DNA of 64,000 nt from a virus: positions 1 to 64,000 of IMG/VR virus record IMGVR_UViG_3300032032_000001. One strand, 5' to 3'. The notes under the pieces are model-generated. The model was not told the origin of the DNA, did no database searches, and saw only the letters and a program-made list of their open reading frames with translations. This document shows, piece by piece, positions 1 to 64,000 of this stretch. Position 1 is the stretch's first letter. Each line of letters begins with the position of its first letter. A program made the position numbers and the translations under genes.

Positions 1-195
1 TCAGAAGAGGTGCTCCGTCTGTTCAAGTATGAGCTTACGGGTAACGAGCGTGCCGTCTATGAACATTTAACTGGTTACGGGAGACCTAAGCTCTCCTCAA
101 CCAGCGAGATAGCTAAGAAATTGAAGATGCCCGACTACCAAGTCAGCCGCCTCAAGAACGCTATCCAGAAAAAACTGAAGAGGTATTTAGGATGA
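1..195 (+). CDS. 3' end of sigma70-family sigma factor-like protein (region 4 HTH); truncated by window start
   Basis: Frame is open from base 1. LTGNERAVYEHLTGY...STSEIAKKLKMPDYQVSRLKNAIQKKLK matches the sigma region-4 pattern L-x-x-E-R-x-V...T-x-x-E-I-A-x-x-L...V-S-x-x-x-x-x-A-x-x-K-L. Regions 2 and 3 are not visible. Confidence 0.6.
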   Translation, partial: SEEVLRLFKYELTGNERAVYEHLTGYGRPKLSSTSEIAKKLKMPDYQVSRLKNAIQKKLKRYLG

Positions 196-57211: not shown

Positions 57212-57231
57212 CATGGTGCTTATACCAAAAA
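57212..57231 (-). promoter_or_regulatory. Putative phage promoter P3 (TTTTTGGTATAAG-CACCAT-G)
   Basis: Motif copy heading the ~16-kb replication operon. Confidence 0.65.
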
Positions 57232-58967: not shown

Positions 58968-60998
58968 ATGGCGTATTCAAACAATAGAACGGGTCGATAT
59001 TCTTTAGGCGCGAGATCCAGAGCAAAGACTATTGGGAAGCCAGAGTCGTTTTATCCTAGCCCCTTTTTCGATGTCGCCCAGAACTACCTGCCCAAGACAA
59101 TTAAAGAAACTTTCGATTGGTGCCTCTACTACCAGCTAACCAACCCGTTGATCAGCGCGGTGACAAGCAAGCTCGCTACATACCCGATCACAGACCTCAT
59201 CTACGAAGATGATAACGAAGGTCTTGTTGAGATGTATCGGAGCATGTTCGAGGGACAGTTCCTTTTAAGGCAGTTTCTGATTGAAACAAACCTGGATAGG
59301 TACACGTATGGAAACGCTTTTGTGTCCGTATCTTTCCCGTTCAAGAAGGTTCTAAAATGCCGCAACTGTGGTGACGCTAACCCTGCCCGTGAAGTTAAGT
59401 ACAAATGGAAGAGCTTCGCGTTCCATATGACCTGTGAAAAATGTATGCACGTAGGCCTCGCCGATGTGAAGGATGAGCCAATAAAGTCGGCCCAGCAGAT
59501 ACGGCTGATTAGATGGAATCCAAAAAGCATCACGGTTAAGTACAATGAGGTAACAGGGCAGAGCCAGTATTACTACAACATGCCGAGGCACATGAGAAAC
59601 GACATCATGCTTGGCAAACCGGCAATGATCGAAACGATCCCACAGGTGTTTATTGAGTCGCTCAAAAAGAAGCGGTCTATTCTCCTGGAAAGCTCTAAGC
59701 TTTTTCACTGCCGACGCGCCTCTGTCTCTAGAGACCCTTCGGATAGCGGCTGGGGAGCCCCTCTGATTCTCCCGGTCCTGAAGGACATCTTTTTCTTACA
59801 GATCTTGCGGAAAGCGCAGGAAGCTGTCGCAATGGAACACGTTGTTCCTATGCGAGTAATGTTCCCACAAGTCACAACGGACGGGAACAATCCGTACGCC
59901 CACGTTAATCTACAGGATTGGCAGGACGAGGTCTCAGGCCAGATCAAAAAGTGGAGGATGGACAACAACCACATCCCCGTCATGCCTGTGCCGATTGGGT
60001 ACCAAATGATCGGCGGGCAGGGAAAATCCCTCCTCCTTCACCAAGAGCTGCGAGTCTATAACGACCAGATTATCGCAGGCATGGGCGTCCCCACAGGGTT
60101 TTTCTACGGAGAGCAGCAATACTCTGGGGCATCCGTTAACCTACGCGCCCTTGAGAACGAGTTCTTGGGAAACCGGCAGGACATGCTCAGGCTTGTAGAA
60201 TTTGTCAGGGATCGCGTTTGCGCATTCTTGGATCTGCCCAGGATGACTCTCAAGTTTAAGCCCTTCAAGATGGCTGATGACATTCAGAGAGCCTCTTTTG
60301 ATATGAACCTCGCTAATGCGGGCATGATCAGCCGAAGAAGCTTCTTGGAGTCGAGGGACTTCAACTTCGACACGGAGCAAGAGCTTATCCACGAAGAGGG
60401 TAAGAAGCTAAATAGATCACAACGTGAGGGCATGATCGCCAACGCTGAATCTCAGGGCGAAGCAATGCTTATCCAGACTAGATACCAGATCCAGTCTCAA
60501 GAATTACAGATGGAGGCCCAGCAGCAACAGCAAGCCTCTGGAATGGCCCCTCCTCCCGGCCAACCCCAACAGGGTCAGCCGCAAGAGGGTCAACCACAAC
60601 AAGGACCGCCTCAGGAGGGGGCTCCCCCGGAAGCAGCGCAGCAACCGGGACCAGAAGGTGCTGCGCCTCCGCCCGATCAACAGGGCGGCGGCCAGCCATC
60701 TCCAGAACAGGGCGCACCTCTCCCAGAAGAGGCTACCGCAGGGGCGGATCAGAGCCCTATGGGGGCAGCAAATACCGGCCAAATGGTAGACATGTTCGCC
60801 CAAGCTAAGCGTGTCTCCTCACAGATAAAAAAGATGAATGAAGTAGATAGATACCGAGCTATGGCGCAATTACGCGCCAGTAGCCCGGATCTATATATGC
60901 TTGTTAACAACGCTCTTTCCGGCGCTGGAATAAAGACTATGCAGCCTTTACCCGAGAAGCTTCCATCTAGAGCGAACCCTGATAGGGCGCAGATCTAA
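58968..60998 (+). CDS. Probable portal protein with Zn-ribbon insertion and Gln/Pro-rich tail
   Basis: NPLISAV.SKLA.YP, D.YTYGNAFV, WNPKSI, GWGAPLI.PVL and IIAGMGVP match the portal layout; CRNC...CEKC insert. Confidence 0.65.
   Translation: MAYSNNRTGRYSLGARSRAKTIGKPESFYPSPFFDVAQNYLPKTIKETFDWCLYYQLTNPLISAVTSKLATYPITDLIYEDDNEGLVEMYRSMFEGQFLLRQFLIETNLDRYTYGNAFVSVSFPFKKVLKCRNCGDANPAREVKYKWKSFAFHMTCEKCMHVGLADVKDEPIKSAQQIRLIRWNPKSITVKYNEVTGQSQYYYNMPRHMRNDIMLGKPAMIETIPQVFIESLKKKRSILLESSKLFHCRRASVSRDPSDSGWGAPLILPVLKDIFFLQILRKAQEAVAMEHVVPMRVMFPQVTTDGNNPYAHVNLQDWQDEVSGQIKKWRMDNNHIPVMPVPIGYQMIGGQGKSLLLHQELRVYNDQIIAGMGVPTGFFYGEQQYSGASVNLRALENEFLGNRQDMLRLVEFVRDRVCAFLDLPRMTLKFKPFKMADDIQRASFDMNLANAGMISRRSFLESRDFNFDTEQELIHEEGKKLNRSQREGMIANAESQGEAMLIQTRYQIQSQELQMEAQQQQQASGMAPPPGQPQQGQPQEGQPQQGPPQEGAPPEAAQQPGPEGAAPPPDQQGGGQPSPEQGAPLPEEATAGADQSPMGAANTGQMVDMFAQAKRVSSQIKKMNEVDRYRAMAQLRASSPDLYMLVNNALSGAGIKTMQPLPEKLPSRANPDRAQI
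60558..60617 (+). repeat. Coding tandem repeat, 4 x 15 nt (GQPQQ/GQPQE/GQPQQ/GPPQE)
   Basis: Visible in the low-complexity C-terminal region of the portal. Confidence 0.7.
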
Positions 60999-61229
60999 TC
61001 ATGTGTTTTGAATTGCTATTAACATTGCGGACTTCTTGTTACACCGGTCGCATCTACCACGTTGGTAGAATGCGGAAGGATGGTCCACTTGTTTAATGCA
61101 AACAGAACATACCCACGCAACACAACCAGTGTTTTCAAGAAAGTGGATACACTCGCCGCAGTTCTTTGGCTCGTTGCACCACATGCTGGCAACGTCGCAA
61201 GCAATGGGTTTTGGTGCGCGGGTACTCAT
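60999..61229 (-). CDS. Small Cys-rich (probable Zn-binding) protein
   Basis: Nine Cys including CGEC, CSVC and CDRC; GAGAG upstream; stop abuts the portal stop. Confidence 0.55.
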   Translation of the reverse strand: MSTRAPKPIACDVASMWCNEPKNCGECIHFLENTGCVAWVCSVCIKQVDHPSAFYQRGRCDRCNKKSAMLIAIQNT

Positions 61230-61241
61230 TTGCTACTCTCT

Positions 61242-61337
61242 TTAGCCGGAAGGTACCAGCGCTGCGTTAACGGCGTTCGCCACTTCCGCACAAGTATTAA
61301 CATACGTTGTAGCACTATTTTTTGCGGAACAACTCAT
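61242..61337 (-). CDS. 31-aa peptide (not in ORF track)
   Basis: MSCSAKNSATTYVNTCAEVANAVNAALVPSG*; AGGAG RBS; directly downstream of promoter P4. Confidence 0.5.
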   Translation of the reverse strand: MSCSAKNSATTYVNTCAEVANAVNAALVPSG

Positions 61338-61371
61338 ATAAACTCTCCTGTTTGTTTAGGGCAGTATTACC

Positions 61372-61392
61372 CATAATTCTTATACCTAATAT
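61372..61392 (-). promoter_or_regulatory. Putative phage promoter P4 (ATATTAGGTATAAG-AATTAT-G)
   Basis: Motif copy followed by hairpin GGGTA-ATAC-TGCCC and an RBS; divergent from the RNAP gene. Confidence 0.65.
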
Positions 61393-61419
61393 GGAGGCCG
61401 GGTTAGCACGGAGGATTAA

Positions 61420-64000
61420 ATGTCGAATATTCTAGATCCCCAGAGGGTGATGAAAGCCCTCGAAGACGGGACCATAGAGCAAATTAGTAGCTTCTTTCCT
61501 TTGGAAGGTAAGAAACATGCCTTGGTCGCAGACAAAATCTACTCTGGCGGGGAAGTAGACCTAGATGATATCAGTAGCCAAAAGAACGCGAGACTTAGAG
61601 GTAGGACGTGGGCGCAAGGCCTTTACGGGGACTTCTCTTTAATAAACAAAGAGACCGGTAAAACCATAGATACGGCTAAAAGACTCAAGGTCGCGAGCCT
61701 CCCAAAGATAACCCGCCGATACAGCTACATCGTAGACGGAACAGAATACCAAGTAGACAACCAGTGGCGTCTGAAGTCAGGCGTGTATACCCGAAGAAAA
61801 GCCAACGGGGAGCTTGAAAGCCAGTTTAACCTTGCCGAGGGCCGTGGATTCCGCATGGGATTTGACCCGTCTAAGCGCCGGTTTCTGGTCACTTATGGGT
61901 CCTCGAACGTGCAGCTTCTCCCGGTCCTTCAAGCGCTAGGCGTTCCTGATGATAAAATCAGGGAGGCGTGGGGTGACACCCTGTACGCACGGAGCATGGC
62001 CGACAAGAAACGCGGCGAGGTTGTAAAGCTGGCCAAAGTATTGTCACGCGGGGCAGCCCCGGCGAACGATACTGAAGCGGCAAGTATAATTAAGGAAGCT
62101 TACGCTGGTACCAAGCTGCTCCCTGACACAACCAAAATCACCCTGGGGTCAGCGTTTGACTCGGTAAATGGGGACGCTCTCCTGGCTACATCGTCTAAGT
62201 TATTAGGCGTTAATAGGGGAGAGAGGGATGTTGATAACCGAGACTCTCTACGGTTTAAGGAGCTTTGGTCAATAAATGACCATATTCCGGAACGAATTCA
62301 GAACTCTCAGCGCAGGATCAAATACAAGCTCGGAAACAATGTGGACCGGAGAGACAGCGTCAGATCTATTATCACGTCTGATATCTTCAACATCCCCATT
62401 AAGACGTTCTTTACGTCAACGAGCCTGTCGCAGCAGACATCCCAGGTTAATCCTGTGGACATGATGGGCGGGTTTCTCCGTACGACAATCATGGGGCAAG
62501 GCGGTATCGTGAGCGAAAACGCCGTGTCCGAAGACGCCAAGCTGATCGACTCTAGTTACCTAGGGTTTATTGATCCGGTACACACTCCTGAAGGAAAGAG
62601 GTCTGGCATCAGTGGCCACCTCTCTCTTGGGGTAGAGAAGCACGGCACCACGCCAAAGATACAGGTGTACGACGTTAAGGAGAAAAAGTTCGCGGCACGG
62701 AGCCCTGGAGAGCTTGTCGGGAAAGCGGTCGCGTTCCCTGATCAGTATTCTTTTAGTGGCAAAGCGCCCAAGGCTATCAGTGATCTGGTTACGGTAGTCA
62801 GGAAGGATGGAGGCGACCCTGAAAAGATCAGCCCCTCCGAAGTCGATTACATCATAAAGACCCCTAAGCAGCTGTTCTCGATAACAGCTAACCTAGTGCC
62901 GTTCCTTCCGTCGGATCAAGCCAACCGCGCCGGTATGGCCACCCGCCACTTAGAGCAGGCGATCTCATTAAAAGACCGTGAGGAGCCCTTGGTTCAGGTC
63001 ACATCCGGAAACCCTAGTGAGAAGTACAAGACCTGGGAGAAGATTGTGGGGTCTTTTACGAGCCACACAAGCCGCGTCTCCGGGACGGTTGAGACCGTCG
63101 GGAAGAACAAGATTGTGGTTCGCGGGAGCGACGGTGAGAAGCACGAGGTTCCCCTCTATGACAACTTCCCACTAAACGACAAGAAGGCCTTTATTTCAAG
63201 CACCCCAACGGTTGCAAAGGGGGACAAGGTTAAGGCCGGTCAAGCTGTGGCGGATACGAACTTCACTAAGAATGGGACGTTGGCGATGGGGACAAACCTA
63301 CGCGTCGCCTATCTACCATATAAGGGGTTAGTGTTTGAGGATGGTATCGTTATATCTGAGACCGCTTCAAATAAGCTTATCAGTGAGCACCTCCATAAAA
63401 ACAGGGCGTATGTCGAGAAATCCATGGGAGTTGGTCTGAAGAAGTTCAGGGCAAATTTCCCTGGGTACGTGACCGAGGATAACGCCGCAAAGCTCGATGA
63501 AGATGGCGTGATAAAGAAGGGTCAAAAAGTTGACCCAGGTGACGTATTAATGACAGTCCTGCAAAAGACGGAGCCCTCTAAGGAGCAGCTACTTCTTAAG
63601 GGGATCCATAAGTCACTAATAAGGCCCTACAAGAACAAGTCTGTGACTTGGGACAAACCGTATACTGGCGTCGTAACGGATGTTGTTAGGAATGGTCGCG
63701 AGATTGTTGCGTACGTCAAGACCGAGGAATCGGCAGATGTTGGCGATAAGCTTACTGGGAGACACGGTAACAAGGGTGTGATTACAGCCGTAGTTCCTGA
63801 TGAGGAAATGCCGAGGGACGCTGACGGCAACCCCGTCCAATTGATCTTAAATCCATCGGGGGTTCCTGGACGAATCAACCTGGGACAGGTTCTGGAGACC
63901 AGTCTGGGCAAGGTGGCTAAAAAGCGCGGGGAGCCTTATGCCGTTGAGAACTTTCAATCTAATGACAGCAAGAAAGTCGTTACCGTACGTGAGCATAAGC
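61420..64000 (+). CDS. rpoB: Multisubunit DNA-directed RNA polymerase beta subunit, phage-encoded; truncated by window end (not in ORF track)
   Basis: GGAGG RBS and ATG 61420. Manual translation gives YIVDGTEYQVDNQWRLKSGVY, GFIDPVHTPEG, NLVPFLPSDQANRAGM, FEDGIVISE, GDKLTGRHGNKGVI and LNPSGVPGRINLGQVLE, all in one frame. Confidence 0.95.
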   Translation, partial: MSNILDPQRVMKALEDGTIEQISSFFPLEGKKHALVADKIYSGGEVDLDDISSQKNARLRGRTWAQGLYGDFSLINKETGKTIDTAKRLKVASLPKITRRYSYIVDGTEYQVDNQWRLKSGVYTRRKANGELESQFNLAEGRGFRMGFDPSKRRFLVTYGSSNVQLLPVLQALGVPDDKIREAWGDTLYARSMADKKRGEVVKLAKVLSRGAAPANDTEAASIIKEAYAGTKLLPDTTKITLGSAFDSVNGDALLATSSKLLGVNRGERDVDNRDSLRFKELWSINDHIPERIQNSQRRIKYKLGNNVDRRDSVRSIITSDIFNIPIKTFFTSTSLSQQTSQVNPVDMMGGFLRTTIMGQGGIVSENAVSEDAKLIDSSYLGFIDPVHTPEGKRSGISGHLSLGVEKHGTTPKIQVYDVKEKKFAARSPGELVGKAVAFPDQYSFSGKAPKAISDLVTVVRKDGGDPEKISPSEVDYIIKTPKQLFSITANLVPFLPSDQANRAGMATRHLEQAISLKDREEPLVQVTSGNPSEKYKTWEKIVGSFTSHTSRVSGTVETVGKNKIVVRGSDGEKHEVPLYDNFPLNDKKAFISSTPTVAKGDKVKAGQAVADTNFTKNGTLAMGTNLRVAYLPYKGLVFEDGIVISETASNKLISEHLHKNRAYVEKSMGVGLKKFRANFPGYVTEDNAAKLDEDGVIKKGQKVDPGDVLMTVLQKTEPSKEQLLLKGIHKSLIRPYKNKSVTWDKPYTGVVTDVVRNGREIVAYVKTEESADVGDKLTGRHGNKGVITAVVPDEEMPRDADGNPVQLILNPSGVPGRINLGQVLETSLGKVAKKRGEPYAVENFQSNDSKKVVTVREHK

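What the first reader, a model, noticed from the sequence alone, without database searches (positions are those of the whole stretch)
61420..64000. Phage-encoded, compact bacterial-type RNA polymerase beta subunit absent from the ORF track
Seen: a frame from ATG 61420 to the window end carries the universal RpoB motifs in order in one polypeptide. It is compact: the rifampicin-pocket segment is at about residue 330 and GDKLTGRHGNKG at about 775, versus about 507 and 1063 in E. coli. Known: phiKZ-type RNAPs are split and far more divergent. A separate lineage of tailed phages with deep-branching multisubunit RNAPs has been described (mReC); membership here is from recollection and unverified. 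Inference: the gene lies near the portal on the virion-gene strand, so the enzyme may be made late and packaged.
Basis: partly seen in the sequence, partly recalled or inferred. Interest (0 to 1): 0.85.

Follow-up and report, generated by a model that had tools for sequence, protein, structure and literature searches.

The report
Single-chain phage RNA polymerase (β–β′ fusion)
An uncultured marine phage of about 180 kb encodes both large subunits of a bacterial-type RNA polymerase as one 2089-residue protein among its particle genes; it belongs to a large, mostly unstudied phage lineage and is probably carried in the virus particle with the phage's own sigma factor to start infection.

Summary
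The frame from ATG 61420 does carry the RpoB motifs (rifampicin-pocket segment at residue 330, GDKLTGRHGNKG at 775). It runs on past the window to contig position 67689, giving 2089 aa: a direct β–β′ fusion with NADFDGD at 1419.

The enzyme is stripped down. It lacks E. coli SI1, SI2 and SI3, and the β′ N-terminal zinc ribbon is replaced by GGPGG. Its only four cysteines are the second zinc site.

The fusion defines a large, almost wholly metagenomic phage lineage: more than 150 clusters at 50% identity, and 65 of 74 IMG/VR loci hold one uninterrupted ORF. It includes Salmonella phage Arash and Vibrio phages D69/D148/D181, where β′ is split.

Trees place it outside sampled bacteria and apart from mReC-type phages. 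mReC's capsid and terminase markers and its separate β′→β genes are not met.

The gene lies between the portal and tail-spike genes. The phage has its own σ factor, cut by the window's start, and no α or ω. Arash homologues and σ were found in virion proteomics, so packaging is likely but unproven here.

This scan has met the same family on other genomes. No paper I found describes the layout.

The parts
61420..64000 (+). First 860 codons of the 2089-codon beta-beta' RNA polymerase gene. It continues beyond the window to contig position 67689. The beta module is residues 1 to about 1031 and the beta' module runs from about 1035 to 2089.
   Evidence: Pfam Rpb2_3/6/7 followed by Rpb1_1/2/3/5 in order. 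NADFDGD at residue 1419. Junction seen in the alignment.
61410..61414 (+). Shine-Dalgarno box GGAGG, 5 nt before the ATG.
   Evidence: Sequence read.
62407..62508 (+). Rifampicin-pocket (cluster I) segment, residues 330-363. The E. coli equivalents D516, H526 and S531 are Ser, Gly and Thr here; Q513 and R529 are kept.
   Evidence: MAFFT alignment with Salmonella and Staphylococcus beta; position.
63742..63777 (+). Beta catalytic-barrel motif GDKLTGRHGNKG, residues 775-786.
   Evidence: E. coli equivalent at 1063.
58968..60998 (+). Portal protein gene (676 aa), upstream on the same strand.
   Evidence: 32% identity over 473 aa, E 4e-85, to Arash Gp204, which is annotated as portal. Detected upstream of the RNAP gene in 34 related loci. 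No Pfam or PHROG match of its own.
61062..61376 (+). Small ORF (104 aa) between the portal and RNAP genes. A small ORF sits in the same place in Arash (Gp205). Poorly conserved.
   Evidence: Homologue found in only 7 of 74 loci.
1..195 (+). C-terminal 61 codons (region 4) of a 294-aa sigma-70-family factor whose gene is cut by the contig's 5' end.
   Evidence: TIGR02937 match at 31-189. Full gene on longer contigs at L092:9120-10004. Sigma70_r3 30.7 bits, above the cut-off; TIGR02937 over residues 87-293. 31% identity, E 5e-26, to Arash Gp10.
57219..57227 (-). TGGTATAAG, an extended -10-like candidate promoter for the leftward non-structural unit. It lies in the 66-nt divergent gap where the rightward virion block begins.
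   Evidence: About nine such intergenic sites lie 43-70 nt upstream of start codons genome-wide.
61379..61387 (-). Antisense copy of the same motif (AGGTATAAG) in the 43-nt gap just before the RNAP start. Function unknown.

Best explanation
The gene encodes the complete catalytic core of a phage RNA polymerase as one polypeptide. A full bacterial-type beta module is joined through about three residues to a full beta' module. Both double-psi barrels, the Asp triad, the second zinc site and the trigger-loop region are intact, so the enzyme should be active (shown by sequence). It is a minimal form. It has no lineage-specific insertions and no beta' N-terminal zinc ribbon, and the phage encodes no alpha or omega; the covalent link probably replaces the alpha-dimer assembly platform (inferred). 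Promoter recognition most likely comes from the phage's own divergent sigma-70-family factor, which is conserved across the lineage. It may act on extended -10-like TGGTATAAG elements that head the non-structural transcription units (inferred). The gene lies in the virion block between the portal and tail-spike genes and overlaps the spike gene's start, so it is probably made late. As in its cultured relative Arash, it is most likely packed into the particle with sigma and delivered with the DNA to start early transcription independently of the host polymerase (inferred from a homologue; not shown for this phage). The substituted rifampicin pocket predicts that this transcription is insensitive to rifampicin (inferred).
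For: Architecture: Pfam domains in order Rpb2_3, Rpb2_6, Rpb2_7, Rpb1_1, Rpb1_2, Rpb1_3, Rpb1_5 in one ORF. GDKLTGRHGNKG at 775 and NADFDGD at 1419. The Asp triad is kept in all relatives checked. The beta C-terminus abuts the beta' N-terminus. The four cysteines align with E. coli beta' C814, C888, C895 and C898, and the zinc ribbon is replaced by GGPGG in all 13 aligned family members; unfused phage beta' proteins keep the ribbon. Selection: 65 of 74 IMG/VR loci hold one uninterrupted fused ORF and the other 9 are cut by contig ends. More than 150 clusters at 50% identity match at E < 1e-183. Relatives carry inteins at conserved catalytic sites. Partners: a sigma factor sits at the window's start and in 5 of 5 complete family genomes. 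No alpha in 0 of 5 genomes, and only one sub-threshold 12.6-bit omega match among the 5. There is only one beta'-type gene on the contig. The sigma-clamp docking test gave weak support only: score 0.44, best of 3 controls 0.00; the mark was reached by 51 of 78 solved complexes and 2 of 108 mismatched pairs, but passes at 0.60 or under are more often wrong than right unless likely beforehand; run agreement at least 23% of contacts, partner pLDDT at least 62; it is a textbook pair, so the pass may reflect memory of solved structures. Virion context: portal upstream. The downstream 488-aa gene folds as a tail central spike, follows the RNAP gene in all 63 loci with room, and its start overlaps the RNAP stop as TGATG. 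Packaging: in Arash virion mass spectrometry Gp206 was the most-detected protein (3516 spectra), with Gp216 at 1210, sigma Gp10 at 467 with 100% coverage, and SNF2 helicase Gp217 also found (PMC10585845). Homologues of all four are present here. Promoters: 10 of 17 GGYATAAG sites lie in the roughly 4% of the genome that is intergenic, and 8 of the 10 lie 43-70 nt upstream of a start codon. Rifampicin pocket.
Against: No experiment exists for this phage or for any fully fused member. The Arash preparation yielded 116 'virion' proteins, including ribonucleotide reductases and RNA ligases, and its authors say abundant enzymes may simply co-purify. Spectral counts are not stoichiometry. The TGGTATAAG elements fit the host sigma-70 extended -10 consensus equally well, so host polymerase could read them. 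Sigma pairing rests on co-occurrence, homology and one weak docking score. Host alpha or omega could still be recruited. The contig is only 83% complete by CheckV, so a second polymerase cannot be excluded for this genome, and I did not search the complete relatives for one. No sense-strand promoter or terminator was identified around the gene, so 'late' timing is inferred from gene order alone.
Confidence: 0.6

Rival explanations
1. It is a non-virion polymerase. The fused enzyme is made during infection and transcribes middle or late phage genes inside the cell. Host RNAP reads the extended -10-like early promoters, and the Arash proteomics signal is carry-over of an abundant enzyme.
For: The Arash authors raise this possibility themselves, and 116 proteins including metabolic enzymes were called 'virion'. 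TGGTATAAG matches the host sigma-70 extended -10 consensus. The rightward virion block lacks that motif, so it must use another signal that a phage enzyme could read.
Against: The gene sits inside the virion block it would have to transcribe, with its stop overlapping the tail-spike gene's start. Only one polymerase gene was found on the contig. The polymerase chains, sigma and the SNF2 helicase were all detected together in Arash particles. The lineage-wide loss of the zinc ribbon and near-absence of cysteine is easier to explain for a protein that must be packed and ejected, though that is only an inference.
Confidence: 0.25
2. It is a member of the published mReC lineage (Weinheimer and Aylward 2020) that their pipeline missed or scored differently.
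For: The beta tree groups all phage beta sequences, mReC-type included, as sister to Bacteria (support 94). The beta' data do not reject a single phage clade (p-AU 0.43). Some mReC entries (beta 1364-1377 aa followed by beta' 1004 aa) could be unfused, intein-bearing relatives of this family; I could not test this. The mReC pipeline listed separate beta and beta' proteins, so a fusion may have been skipped.
Against: mReC-type contigs form their own clade (100) apart from the fused family (100) in both trees. Their gene order is beta' then beta, as separate ORFs. Their T4-type MCP is present in an mReC-type control (115.9 bits) but absent from this phage's capsid candidate and from two complete family genomes. 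TerL here is gpA-type PF05876, not PF03237. None of the six source metagenome IDs I searched occurs among the paper's mReC contigs.
Confidence: 0.12
3. It is a bacterial rpoB-rpoC segment: a chimeric assembly or a recent capture from a host.
For: The motifs are bacterial in type, and NCBI holds relatives labelled as Alteromonadaceae, Gemmatimonadales or Myxococcota MAG proteins.
Against: Identity to every bacterial phylum is a flat 28-32%. Bacteria form a separate clade with support 100 in both trees. The flanking genes are portal, tail spike, TerL and MCP. The arrangement is identical on many independent contigs. Only one 2-kb MAG fragment among 185,579 species genomes carries a close relative.
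Confidence: 0.01

Closest known systems
RNA polymerase of Salmonella phage Arash (Gp206 + Gp216, sigma Gp10, SNF2 helicase Gp217; OQ632216, PMC10585845) and of Vibrio phages D69/D148/D181
   Same: Same clade (support 100 in both trees). About 31% identity over the whole length. The beta to beta' junction is fused in the same way. Same gene order: portal, small ORF, polymerase. Homologous sigma, SNF2 helicase, TerL and MCP.
   Different: In Arash and D69 beta' is cut at the equivalent of residue ~1510 into two genes separated by inserted genes, giving a two-chain enzyme. Here it is one chain. In the beta tree the two-chain and stand-alone-beta forms make one branch (97) and the full fusions another (98). 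The Arash paper labels the proteins simply beta and beta' and does not describe the fusion.
mReC, multisubunit-RNAP-encoding Caudovirales (Weinheimer and Aylward 2020, PMC7481178)
   Same: Tailed phages with a bacterial-type polymerase that Pfam and COG models detect, compact subunits, and a position outside cellular clades. Possibly part of one wider phage assemblage.
   Different: mReC have separate beta' and beta genes in the reverse order, a T4-type MCP and a Terminase_6N TerL, and form a separate RNAP clade.
phiKZ/AR9-type jumbo-phage virion and non-virion RNAPs (PMC7598289, PMC7824862)
   Same: Phage-encoded two-barrel enzymes. One set is virion-packaged for early transcription. There is no alpha, and an SNF2-type helicase is linked to the polymerase genes.
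   Different: Those enzymes are split into four or five chains, are highly divergent, come as two paralogous sets and have no sigma factor. Here there is one chain, clear bacterial-type domains and a sigma factor. PHROG matches to those families are weak.
Single-chain two-barrel phage RNAPs: crAss-like gp66, YonO, P23-45 tape-measure-fused RNAP (PMC10770324; bioRxiv 10.1101/2020.03.07.982082)
   Same: Both barrels lie in one polypeptide. Those of the crAss-like phage and P23-45 are virion-delivered for early transcription.
   Different: Those are so divergent that cellular beta and beta' models do not detect them (stated in PMC7481178), and they lack most cellular domains. This enzyme keeps the full bacterial domain set.
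Cellular beta-beta' fusions (rpoBC of Helicobacter and Wolbachia; from my own knowledge, no primary paper read here)
   Same: Same order and a direct head-to-tail fusion of full-length beta and beta'.
   Different: Those are ordinary bacterial enzymes with alpha, omega and the zinc ribbon. No sequences from those genera were included in my trees, so a relationship was not tested.

Membership tests
Bacterial-type multisubunit RNAP large subunits (beta + beta') | Beta barrel with GDK...RHGNKG and Rpb2 domains 3, 6 and 7 | tested here: met
   PF00562 E 9e-58, PF04565, PF04560; motif at residue 775.
Bacterial-type multisubunit RNAP large subunits (beta + beta') | Beta' barrel with NADFDGD and Rpb1 domains 1, 2, 3 and 5 | tested here: met
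   PF00623 and PF04998 above their cut-offs, PF04997 just above (40.7 vs 39.7 bits), PF04983 below its cut-off (20.2 vs 28.9). Motif at residue 1419. Best PDB match is Thermus beta', E 1e-112.
Bacterial-type multisubunit RNAP large subunits (beta + beta') | Two zinc sites in beta' (N-terminal ribbon and the C814/C888/C895/C898 site) | tested here: not met
   The second site is kept; its four ligands are the only cysteines in the protein. The N-terminal ribbon is deleted and replaced by GGPGG.
Bacterial-type multisubunit RNAP large subunits (beta + beta') | Partner subunits alpha and omega encoded alongside | tested here: not met
   No PF01000 on the contig. No PF01193 in 5 complete family genomes, and only one sub-threshold 12.6-bit PF01192 match. 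Use of the host's alpha or omega cannot be excluded.
mReC (PMC7481178) | RNAP falls in the mReC clade | tested here: inconclusive
   Separate from three or four mReC-type contigs (each clade 100) in both trees, but a wider phage clade is supported (94) or not rejected (p 0.43). The published 97-contig alignment was not available.
mReC (PMC7481178) | Beta and beta' as separate proteins, each at least 800 aa | tested here: not met
   One 2089-aa ORF. mReC tables list distinct ORFs.
mReC (PMC7481178) | Major capsid protein of family PF07068 (T4 Gp23 type) | tested here: not met
   The MCP candidate (homologue of Arash Gp226) has no PF07068 match. Two complete family genomes have none, while an mReC-type control scores 115.9 bits.
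mReC (PMC7481178) | TerL of family PF03237 / VOG01069 | tested here: not met
   PF03237 scores only 12.6 bits, below its cut-off. TerL matches PF05876 GpA_ATPase and PHROG 675. VOG was not available.
Arash-type phage RNAP lineage (informal) | Beta joined directly to the beta' N-terminus, no zinc ribbon, portal gene upstream, own sigma factor | tested here: met
Arash-type phage RNAP lineage (informal) | Beta' split into two genes at about residue 1510 | tested here: not met
   Uninterrupted here and in 65 IMG/VR loci.
phiKZ-type split RNAP | Beta and beta' each split into two or more polypeptides; no sigma factor | tested here: not met
   Single chain; sigma factor present.
Virion-packaged RNAP (functional class) | Protein physically present in purified virions | not testable with these tools
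   Shown only for the Arash homologues, by LC-MS.

The most novel reading that the evidence does not exclude
This lineage is a distinct, ancient branch of two-barrel polymerases, sister to the bacterial enzyme. It has evolved into a self-sufficient, alpha-less, omega-less, single-chain core that uses only a sigma factor. The core is packed into capsids and threaded through the tail. The lineage-wide loss of the zinc ribbon and of nearly all cysteines would be an adaptation to unfolding and refolding during ejection. That would make it the simplest natural sigma-dependent RNAP and a one-gene model for bacterial-type transcription.
Probability: 0.35. Interest if true: 0.8.

Novelty: new variant of a known kind. 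Interest (0 to 1): 0.66.

Why it matters
Bacterial-type RNA polymerase is regarded as an obligate multi-subunit machine assembled on an alpha dimer. Here a whole, widespread phage lineage makes the catalytic core as one chain with no alpha or omega gene, pairs it with its own sigma factor, and probably ships it in the particle. If that holds, it offers three things. It would be a single-gene, sigma-dependent polymerase for structural and mechanistic work. It would show a third independent route, besides phiKZ-type and N4/crAss-type enzymes, by which phages avoid dependence on host transcription. It would also add a well-alignable marker for deep phage phylogeny that the mReC survey appears to have missed. 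The predicted rifampicin insensitivity gives a simple test in the cultured relatives, Arash and Vibrio phage D69.

Tried and rejected
- DNA-level search of deposited phages with 8 kb around the gene found nothing. The first attempt was one base over the limit.
- PHROG and Pfam scans of the neighbouring genes were almost all blank.
- The first PF07068 genome scan had no positive control and was therefore inconclusive. I repeated it with an mReC-type control.
- Fishing for mReC in IMG/VR with the Carin-5 protein alone found nothing. I had also mislabelled the Carin-5 and GN1 genes, whose order is beta' then beta; this was corrected, and alignment A1 was discarded.
- The published mReC contigs could not be fetched by name, and none of the six source metagenome IDs I searched occurs among the mReC contigs. 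I used mReC-type stand-ins identified by size, gene order and Gp23-type MCP.
- I considered the conserved 488-aa downstream gene as a possible polymerase accessory subunit and rejected that: it folds as a tail central spike.
- The sigma-70 promoter and terminator scan around the gene showed no enrichment: 7 found against 13.8 expected, and 18 against 20.4.
- The scan of 185,579 species genomes gave no host clue, only one mis-binned 2-kb fragment.
- A second AU test (fused family plus mReC-type as one clade) did not finish in time.
- Literature searches for a description of a fused bacterial-type phage RNAP found none. Absence from the searchable library is not proof of absence.
- The protein is too long (2089 aa) for the structure predictor, so no model of the polymerase was made.
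Full report
OBSERVATION. The window is the first 64 kb of a 148,364-bp IMG/VR viral contig, linear, with CheckV completeness 83%. A frame opens at ATG 61420, five bases after a GGAGG box, and is still open at 64000. The 860 residues inside the window match Rpb2 domain 6 (E 1e-50) and domain 3. The rifampicin-pocket segment starts at residue 330 and GDKLTGRHGNKG at 775, exactly as reported.

In the whole contig the frame runs to 67689, giving 2089 aa. Pfam finds Rpb2_3, Rpb2_6 and Rpb2_7 followed by Rpb1_1, Rpb1_2, Rpb1_3 and Rpb1_5, and NADFDGD lies at residue 1419. Aligned with real bacterial subunits, the beta C-terminus ends at about residue 1031 and the beta' N-terminus begins at about 1035, so this is a direct head-to-tail fusion.

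ANATOMY. The enzyme is a minimal form.
- E. coli beta SI1 and SI2 and beta' SI3 are absent.
- The beta' N-terminal zinc ribbon (E. coli C70, C72, C85, C88) is deleted and replaced by GGPGG. The same holds in all 13 aligned family members. Unfused phage beta' proteins keep the ribbon.
- The protein has only four cysteines (1744, 1805, 1812, 1815), and they align with the four ligands of the second beta' zinc site.
- Among 127 intein-free relatives the modal cysteine count is also four, and two relatives have none.
- The catalytic loop is xDxDGD in every relative checked.
- In the rifampicin pocket the E. coli positions D516, H526 and S531 are Ser, Gly and Thr; Q513 and R529 are kept. These are the classical resistance positions, so weak rifampicin binding is a reasonable but untested inference.

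A LARGE LINEAGE.
- IMG/VR holds 74 related loci at 36-89% identity. In 65 of them the gene is one uninterrupted ORF, and the other nine are cut by contig ends.
- An exhaustive search with the beta' module returned 150 representative clusters (50% identity), all from this family at E < 1e-183.
- The word-indexed search listed more than 120 clusters at 90% identity, from Tara, JGI, Logan and ENA. They are named at best 'RNA polymerase subunit beta'' or filed as hypothetical proteins of mis-binned MAGs.
- This exact protein also lies on a 181,912-bp ENA contig that is permuted relative to this one. Complete relatives are 178-196 kb, so the full genome is about 180 kb.
- Longer members carry inteins, shown by Pfam intein and LAGLIDADG domains. 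They sit at about ten recurring sites, including inside GDKL|, just after NADFDGD and at TFH|TGG. The protein studied here has none.

RELATIVES WITH NAMES. The closest deposited phages are Vibrio phages D69, D148 and D181 and Salmonella phage Arash, at about 31% identity over the full length. In them the gene is cut at the equivalent of residue ~1510. Arash Gp206 (1525 aa) covers beta plus the front of beta'. Gp216 (606 aa) covers the rest and lies behind a block of inserted genes. The beta-module search also found stand-alone beta proteins of 1112-1143 aa on 100-200-kb contigs. This genome shares portal, SNF2 helicase, TerL, MCP and several structural genes with Arash.

PHYLOGENY. I built maximum-likelihood trees (LG+G4, short search, SH-aLRT support) for each module.
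- Beta' tree: 52 rows, rooted on one giant-virus Rpb1. The fused family plus Arash and D69 form one clade (100). The 17 bacteria form one clade (100). mReC-type contigs form their own clade (100). Carin-5, GN1, RHph_Y65 and 1.031.O form another (95). The order among these groups is unresolved.
- Beta tree: 55 rows, rooted on archaeal and eukaryotic Rpb2. Bacteria form one clade (100). All phage beta sequences group together as its sister (94). Within them the mReC-type clade (100) is separate from Carin-5/GN1 plus the family (98). The family (100) divides into a split and stand-alone-beta branch (97) and the fully fused branch containing this protein (98).
- The beta' data do not reject a single phage clade (p-AU 0.43).
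- Identity to bacterial beta' is a flat 28-32% across phyla.
The enzyme is therefore not nested in any sampled bacterial group. Caveats: modest bacterial sampling, a simple model, compositional outliers, and stand-ins in place of the published mReC set.

IS IT mReC? The paper defines mReC by a distinct RNAP clade, a PF07068 capsid protein and a PF03237 TerL. Its tables list beta and beta' as separate ORFs, for example 1011 and 904 aa. I recovered mReC-type contigs with beta' of 897-914 aa followed by beta of 1007-1016 aa, and one of them has a Gp23-type MCP at 115.9 bits. In this phage the MCP candidate has no PF07068 match. TerL is a gpA-type ATPase (PF05876), with only 12.6 bits to PF03237. 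Two complete family genomes lack a Gp23-type MCP. Three defining features are not met, and clade membership is at best that of a neighbour. A fused protein may also have escaped the paper's pipeline, which retained separate qualifying beta and beta' matches.

CONTEXT AND PARTNERS.
- The portal homologue lies upstream on the same strand.
- The 488-aa gene whose ATG overlaps the polymerase stop (TGATG) follows the polymerase in all 63 loci that have room. Its AlphaFold model (pLDDT 66) matches the membrane-piercing central spikes of contractile tails: R2 pyocin, P2 gpV, phi92 gp138, Mu, PVC and AFP. It is a tail part, not a polymerase subunit.
- TerL and MCP follow further downstream.
- At the window's very start, bases 1-195 are the last 61 codons of a 294-aa sigma-70-family factor cut by the contig end. 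The evidence is TIGR02937 over residues 87-293, Sigma70_r3 above its cut-off, and 31% identity (E 5e-26) to Arash Gp10.
- All five complete family genomes tested have a sigma gene. None has an alpha N-terminal domain, and the only omega-model match is one sub-threshold 12.6-bit hit.
- The contig has only one beta'-type gene.
- A docking test of sigma against the beta' clamp region gave weak support only: 0.44 against 0.00 for the best of 3 controls. The mark was reached by 51 of 78 solved complexes and 2 of 108 mismatched pairs, but passes at 0.60 or under are more often wrong than right unless the guess was likely beforehand. Run agreement was at least 23% of contacts and partner pLDDT at least 62. 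This is a textbook pair that the model may remember.
- The 606-aa gene at contig 74180-76000 is an SNF2-family ATPase homologous to Arash Gp217.

HOW IT PROBABLY WORKS.
- Shown by sequence: a complete, conserved, single-chain catalytic core.
- Inferred: the covalent link replaces alpha-mediated assembly.
- Inferred: the phage sigma supplies promoter recognition. About nine intergenic TGGTATAAG-type elements (extended -10-like, no evident -35) lie 43-70 nt upstream of start codons, mostly on leftward non-structural units. Ten of the 17 genome-wide GGYATAAG sites fall in the roughly 4% of the genome that is intergenic. The best-conserved part of the phage sigma is region 3, which in bacterial sigma-70 reads the TG of extended -10 promoters (established knowledge). 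Host sigma-70 could read the same sites.
- Inferred from a homologue: packaging. Arash virion LC-MS found Gp206 as the most-detected protein (3516 spectra), Gp216 at 1210, sigma Gp10 at 467 with 100% coverage, and Gp217. That preparation listed 116 proteins, including metabolic enzymes, and its authors note possible carry-over.
I put the packaged-early-polymerase model at about 0.6 and a non-virion role at about 0.25.

NOVELTY. Phage bacterial-type RNAPs (mReC), virion RNAPs (phiKZ, N4, crAss, P23-45) and cellular beta-beta' fusions are all known. The Arash paper annotated its two chains simply as beta and beta'. I found no paper that describes the single-chain layout, the lineage-wide loss of the zinc ribbon, the sigma pairing or the size of the family. 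Earlier follow-ups of this scan reached similar readings on other genomes, and another first-stage note read this same gene as single-chain. I re-tested the points I use. I rate it a new variant of a known kind.

Noticed in passing
window 11165-39893 (+): Four consecutive giant ORFs (2686, 2272, 1753 and 2578 aa) with no Pfam family above threshold. Only the first shows a weak match to Arash structural protein Gp13. They may be internal or ejected virion proteins.
   Followed up: partly
relatives P0004-P0255 (positions relative to P0002): Inteins at about ten recurring sites in the polymerase of relatives: ~390, ~620-640, ~764-790, ~805-818, ~976-988, ~1085-1105, ~1286-1298, ~1425-1436 and ~1846-1863. 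Up to four occur in one protein (4739 aa), often exactly at catalytic motifs.
   Followed up: partly
window 61379-61387 (-): A copy of the TGGTATAAG-type promoter motif points leftward (antisense to the small ORF) in the 43-nt gap just before the polymerase start. There is no downstream gene on that strand for 4.2 kb.
   Followed up: no
contig 74180-76000 (L001:16181-17998): An SNF2-family ATPase (PF00176, 68 bits) homologous to Arash Gp217, which was detected in virions. It recalls bacterial RapA and the SNF2 helicases linked to phiKZ-type RNAP genes.
   Followed up: partly
L092:8216-9100: A second 294-aa ORF lies directly upstream of the sigma gene. It is the same length and has no family match. 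I did not test whether it is a diverged sigma paralogue or an anti-sigma factor.
   Followed up: no
contig 69728-71704 (L001:11729-13702): A 658-aa ORF of unknown function is conserved about 1.2-3.1 kb downstream of the polymerase gene in 60 of 74 related loci.
   Followed up: no
L093 (ENA contig of 181,912 bp): The same genome assembled as a longer contig that is permuted relative to this one: the window's first genes lie at its far end. This suggests a circularly permuted or terminally redundant genome of about 182 kb.
   Followed up: partly
L097:5079-8870 (Vibrio phage 1.031.O); L088 and L096 (Cobetia phage Carin-5, Yersinia phage GN1): Other cultured phages carry bacterial-type RNAP genes in the order beta' then beta, with a gene annotated as a sigma factor just upstream in Carin-5. 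The 1.031.O protein (1263 aa) has about 400 extra C-terminal residues after the beta'-like part.
   Followed up: partly
phage collection hits H4-H11, H15-H18: Many records deposited as 'phage' (Staphylococcus, Listeria, Enterococcus, Salmonella, Acinetobacter MD-2021a) contain ordinary host rpoB-rpoC. They look like bacterial contamination of phage assemblies.
   Followed up: partly
P0265, P0031, P0268, P0386: A few family members have beta or beta' as a separate ORF of about 950-1050 aa on large contigs, nested among fused forms. These could be secondary splits or frameshift errors.
   Followed up: no
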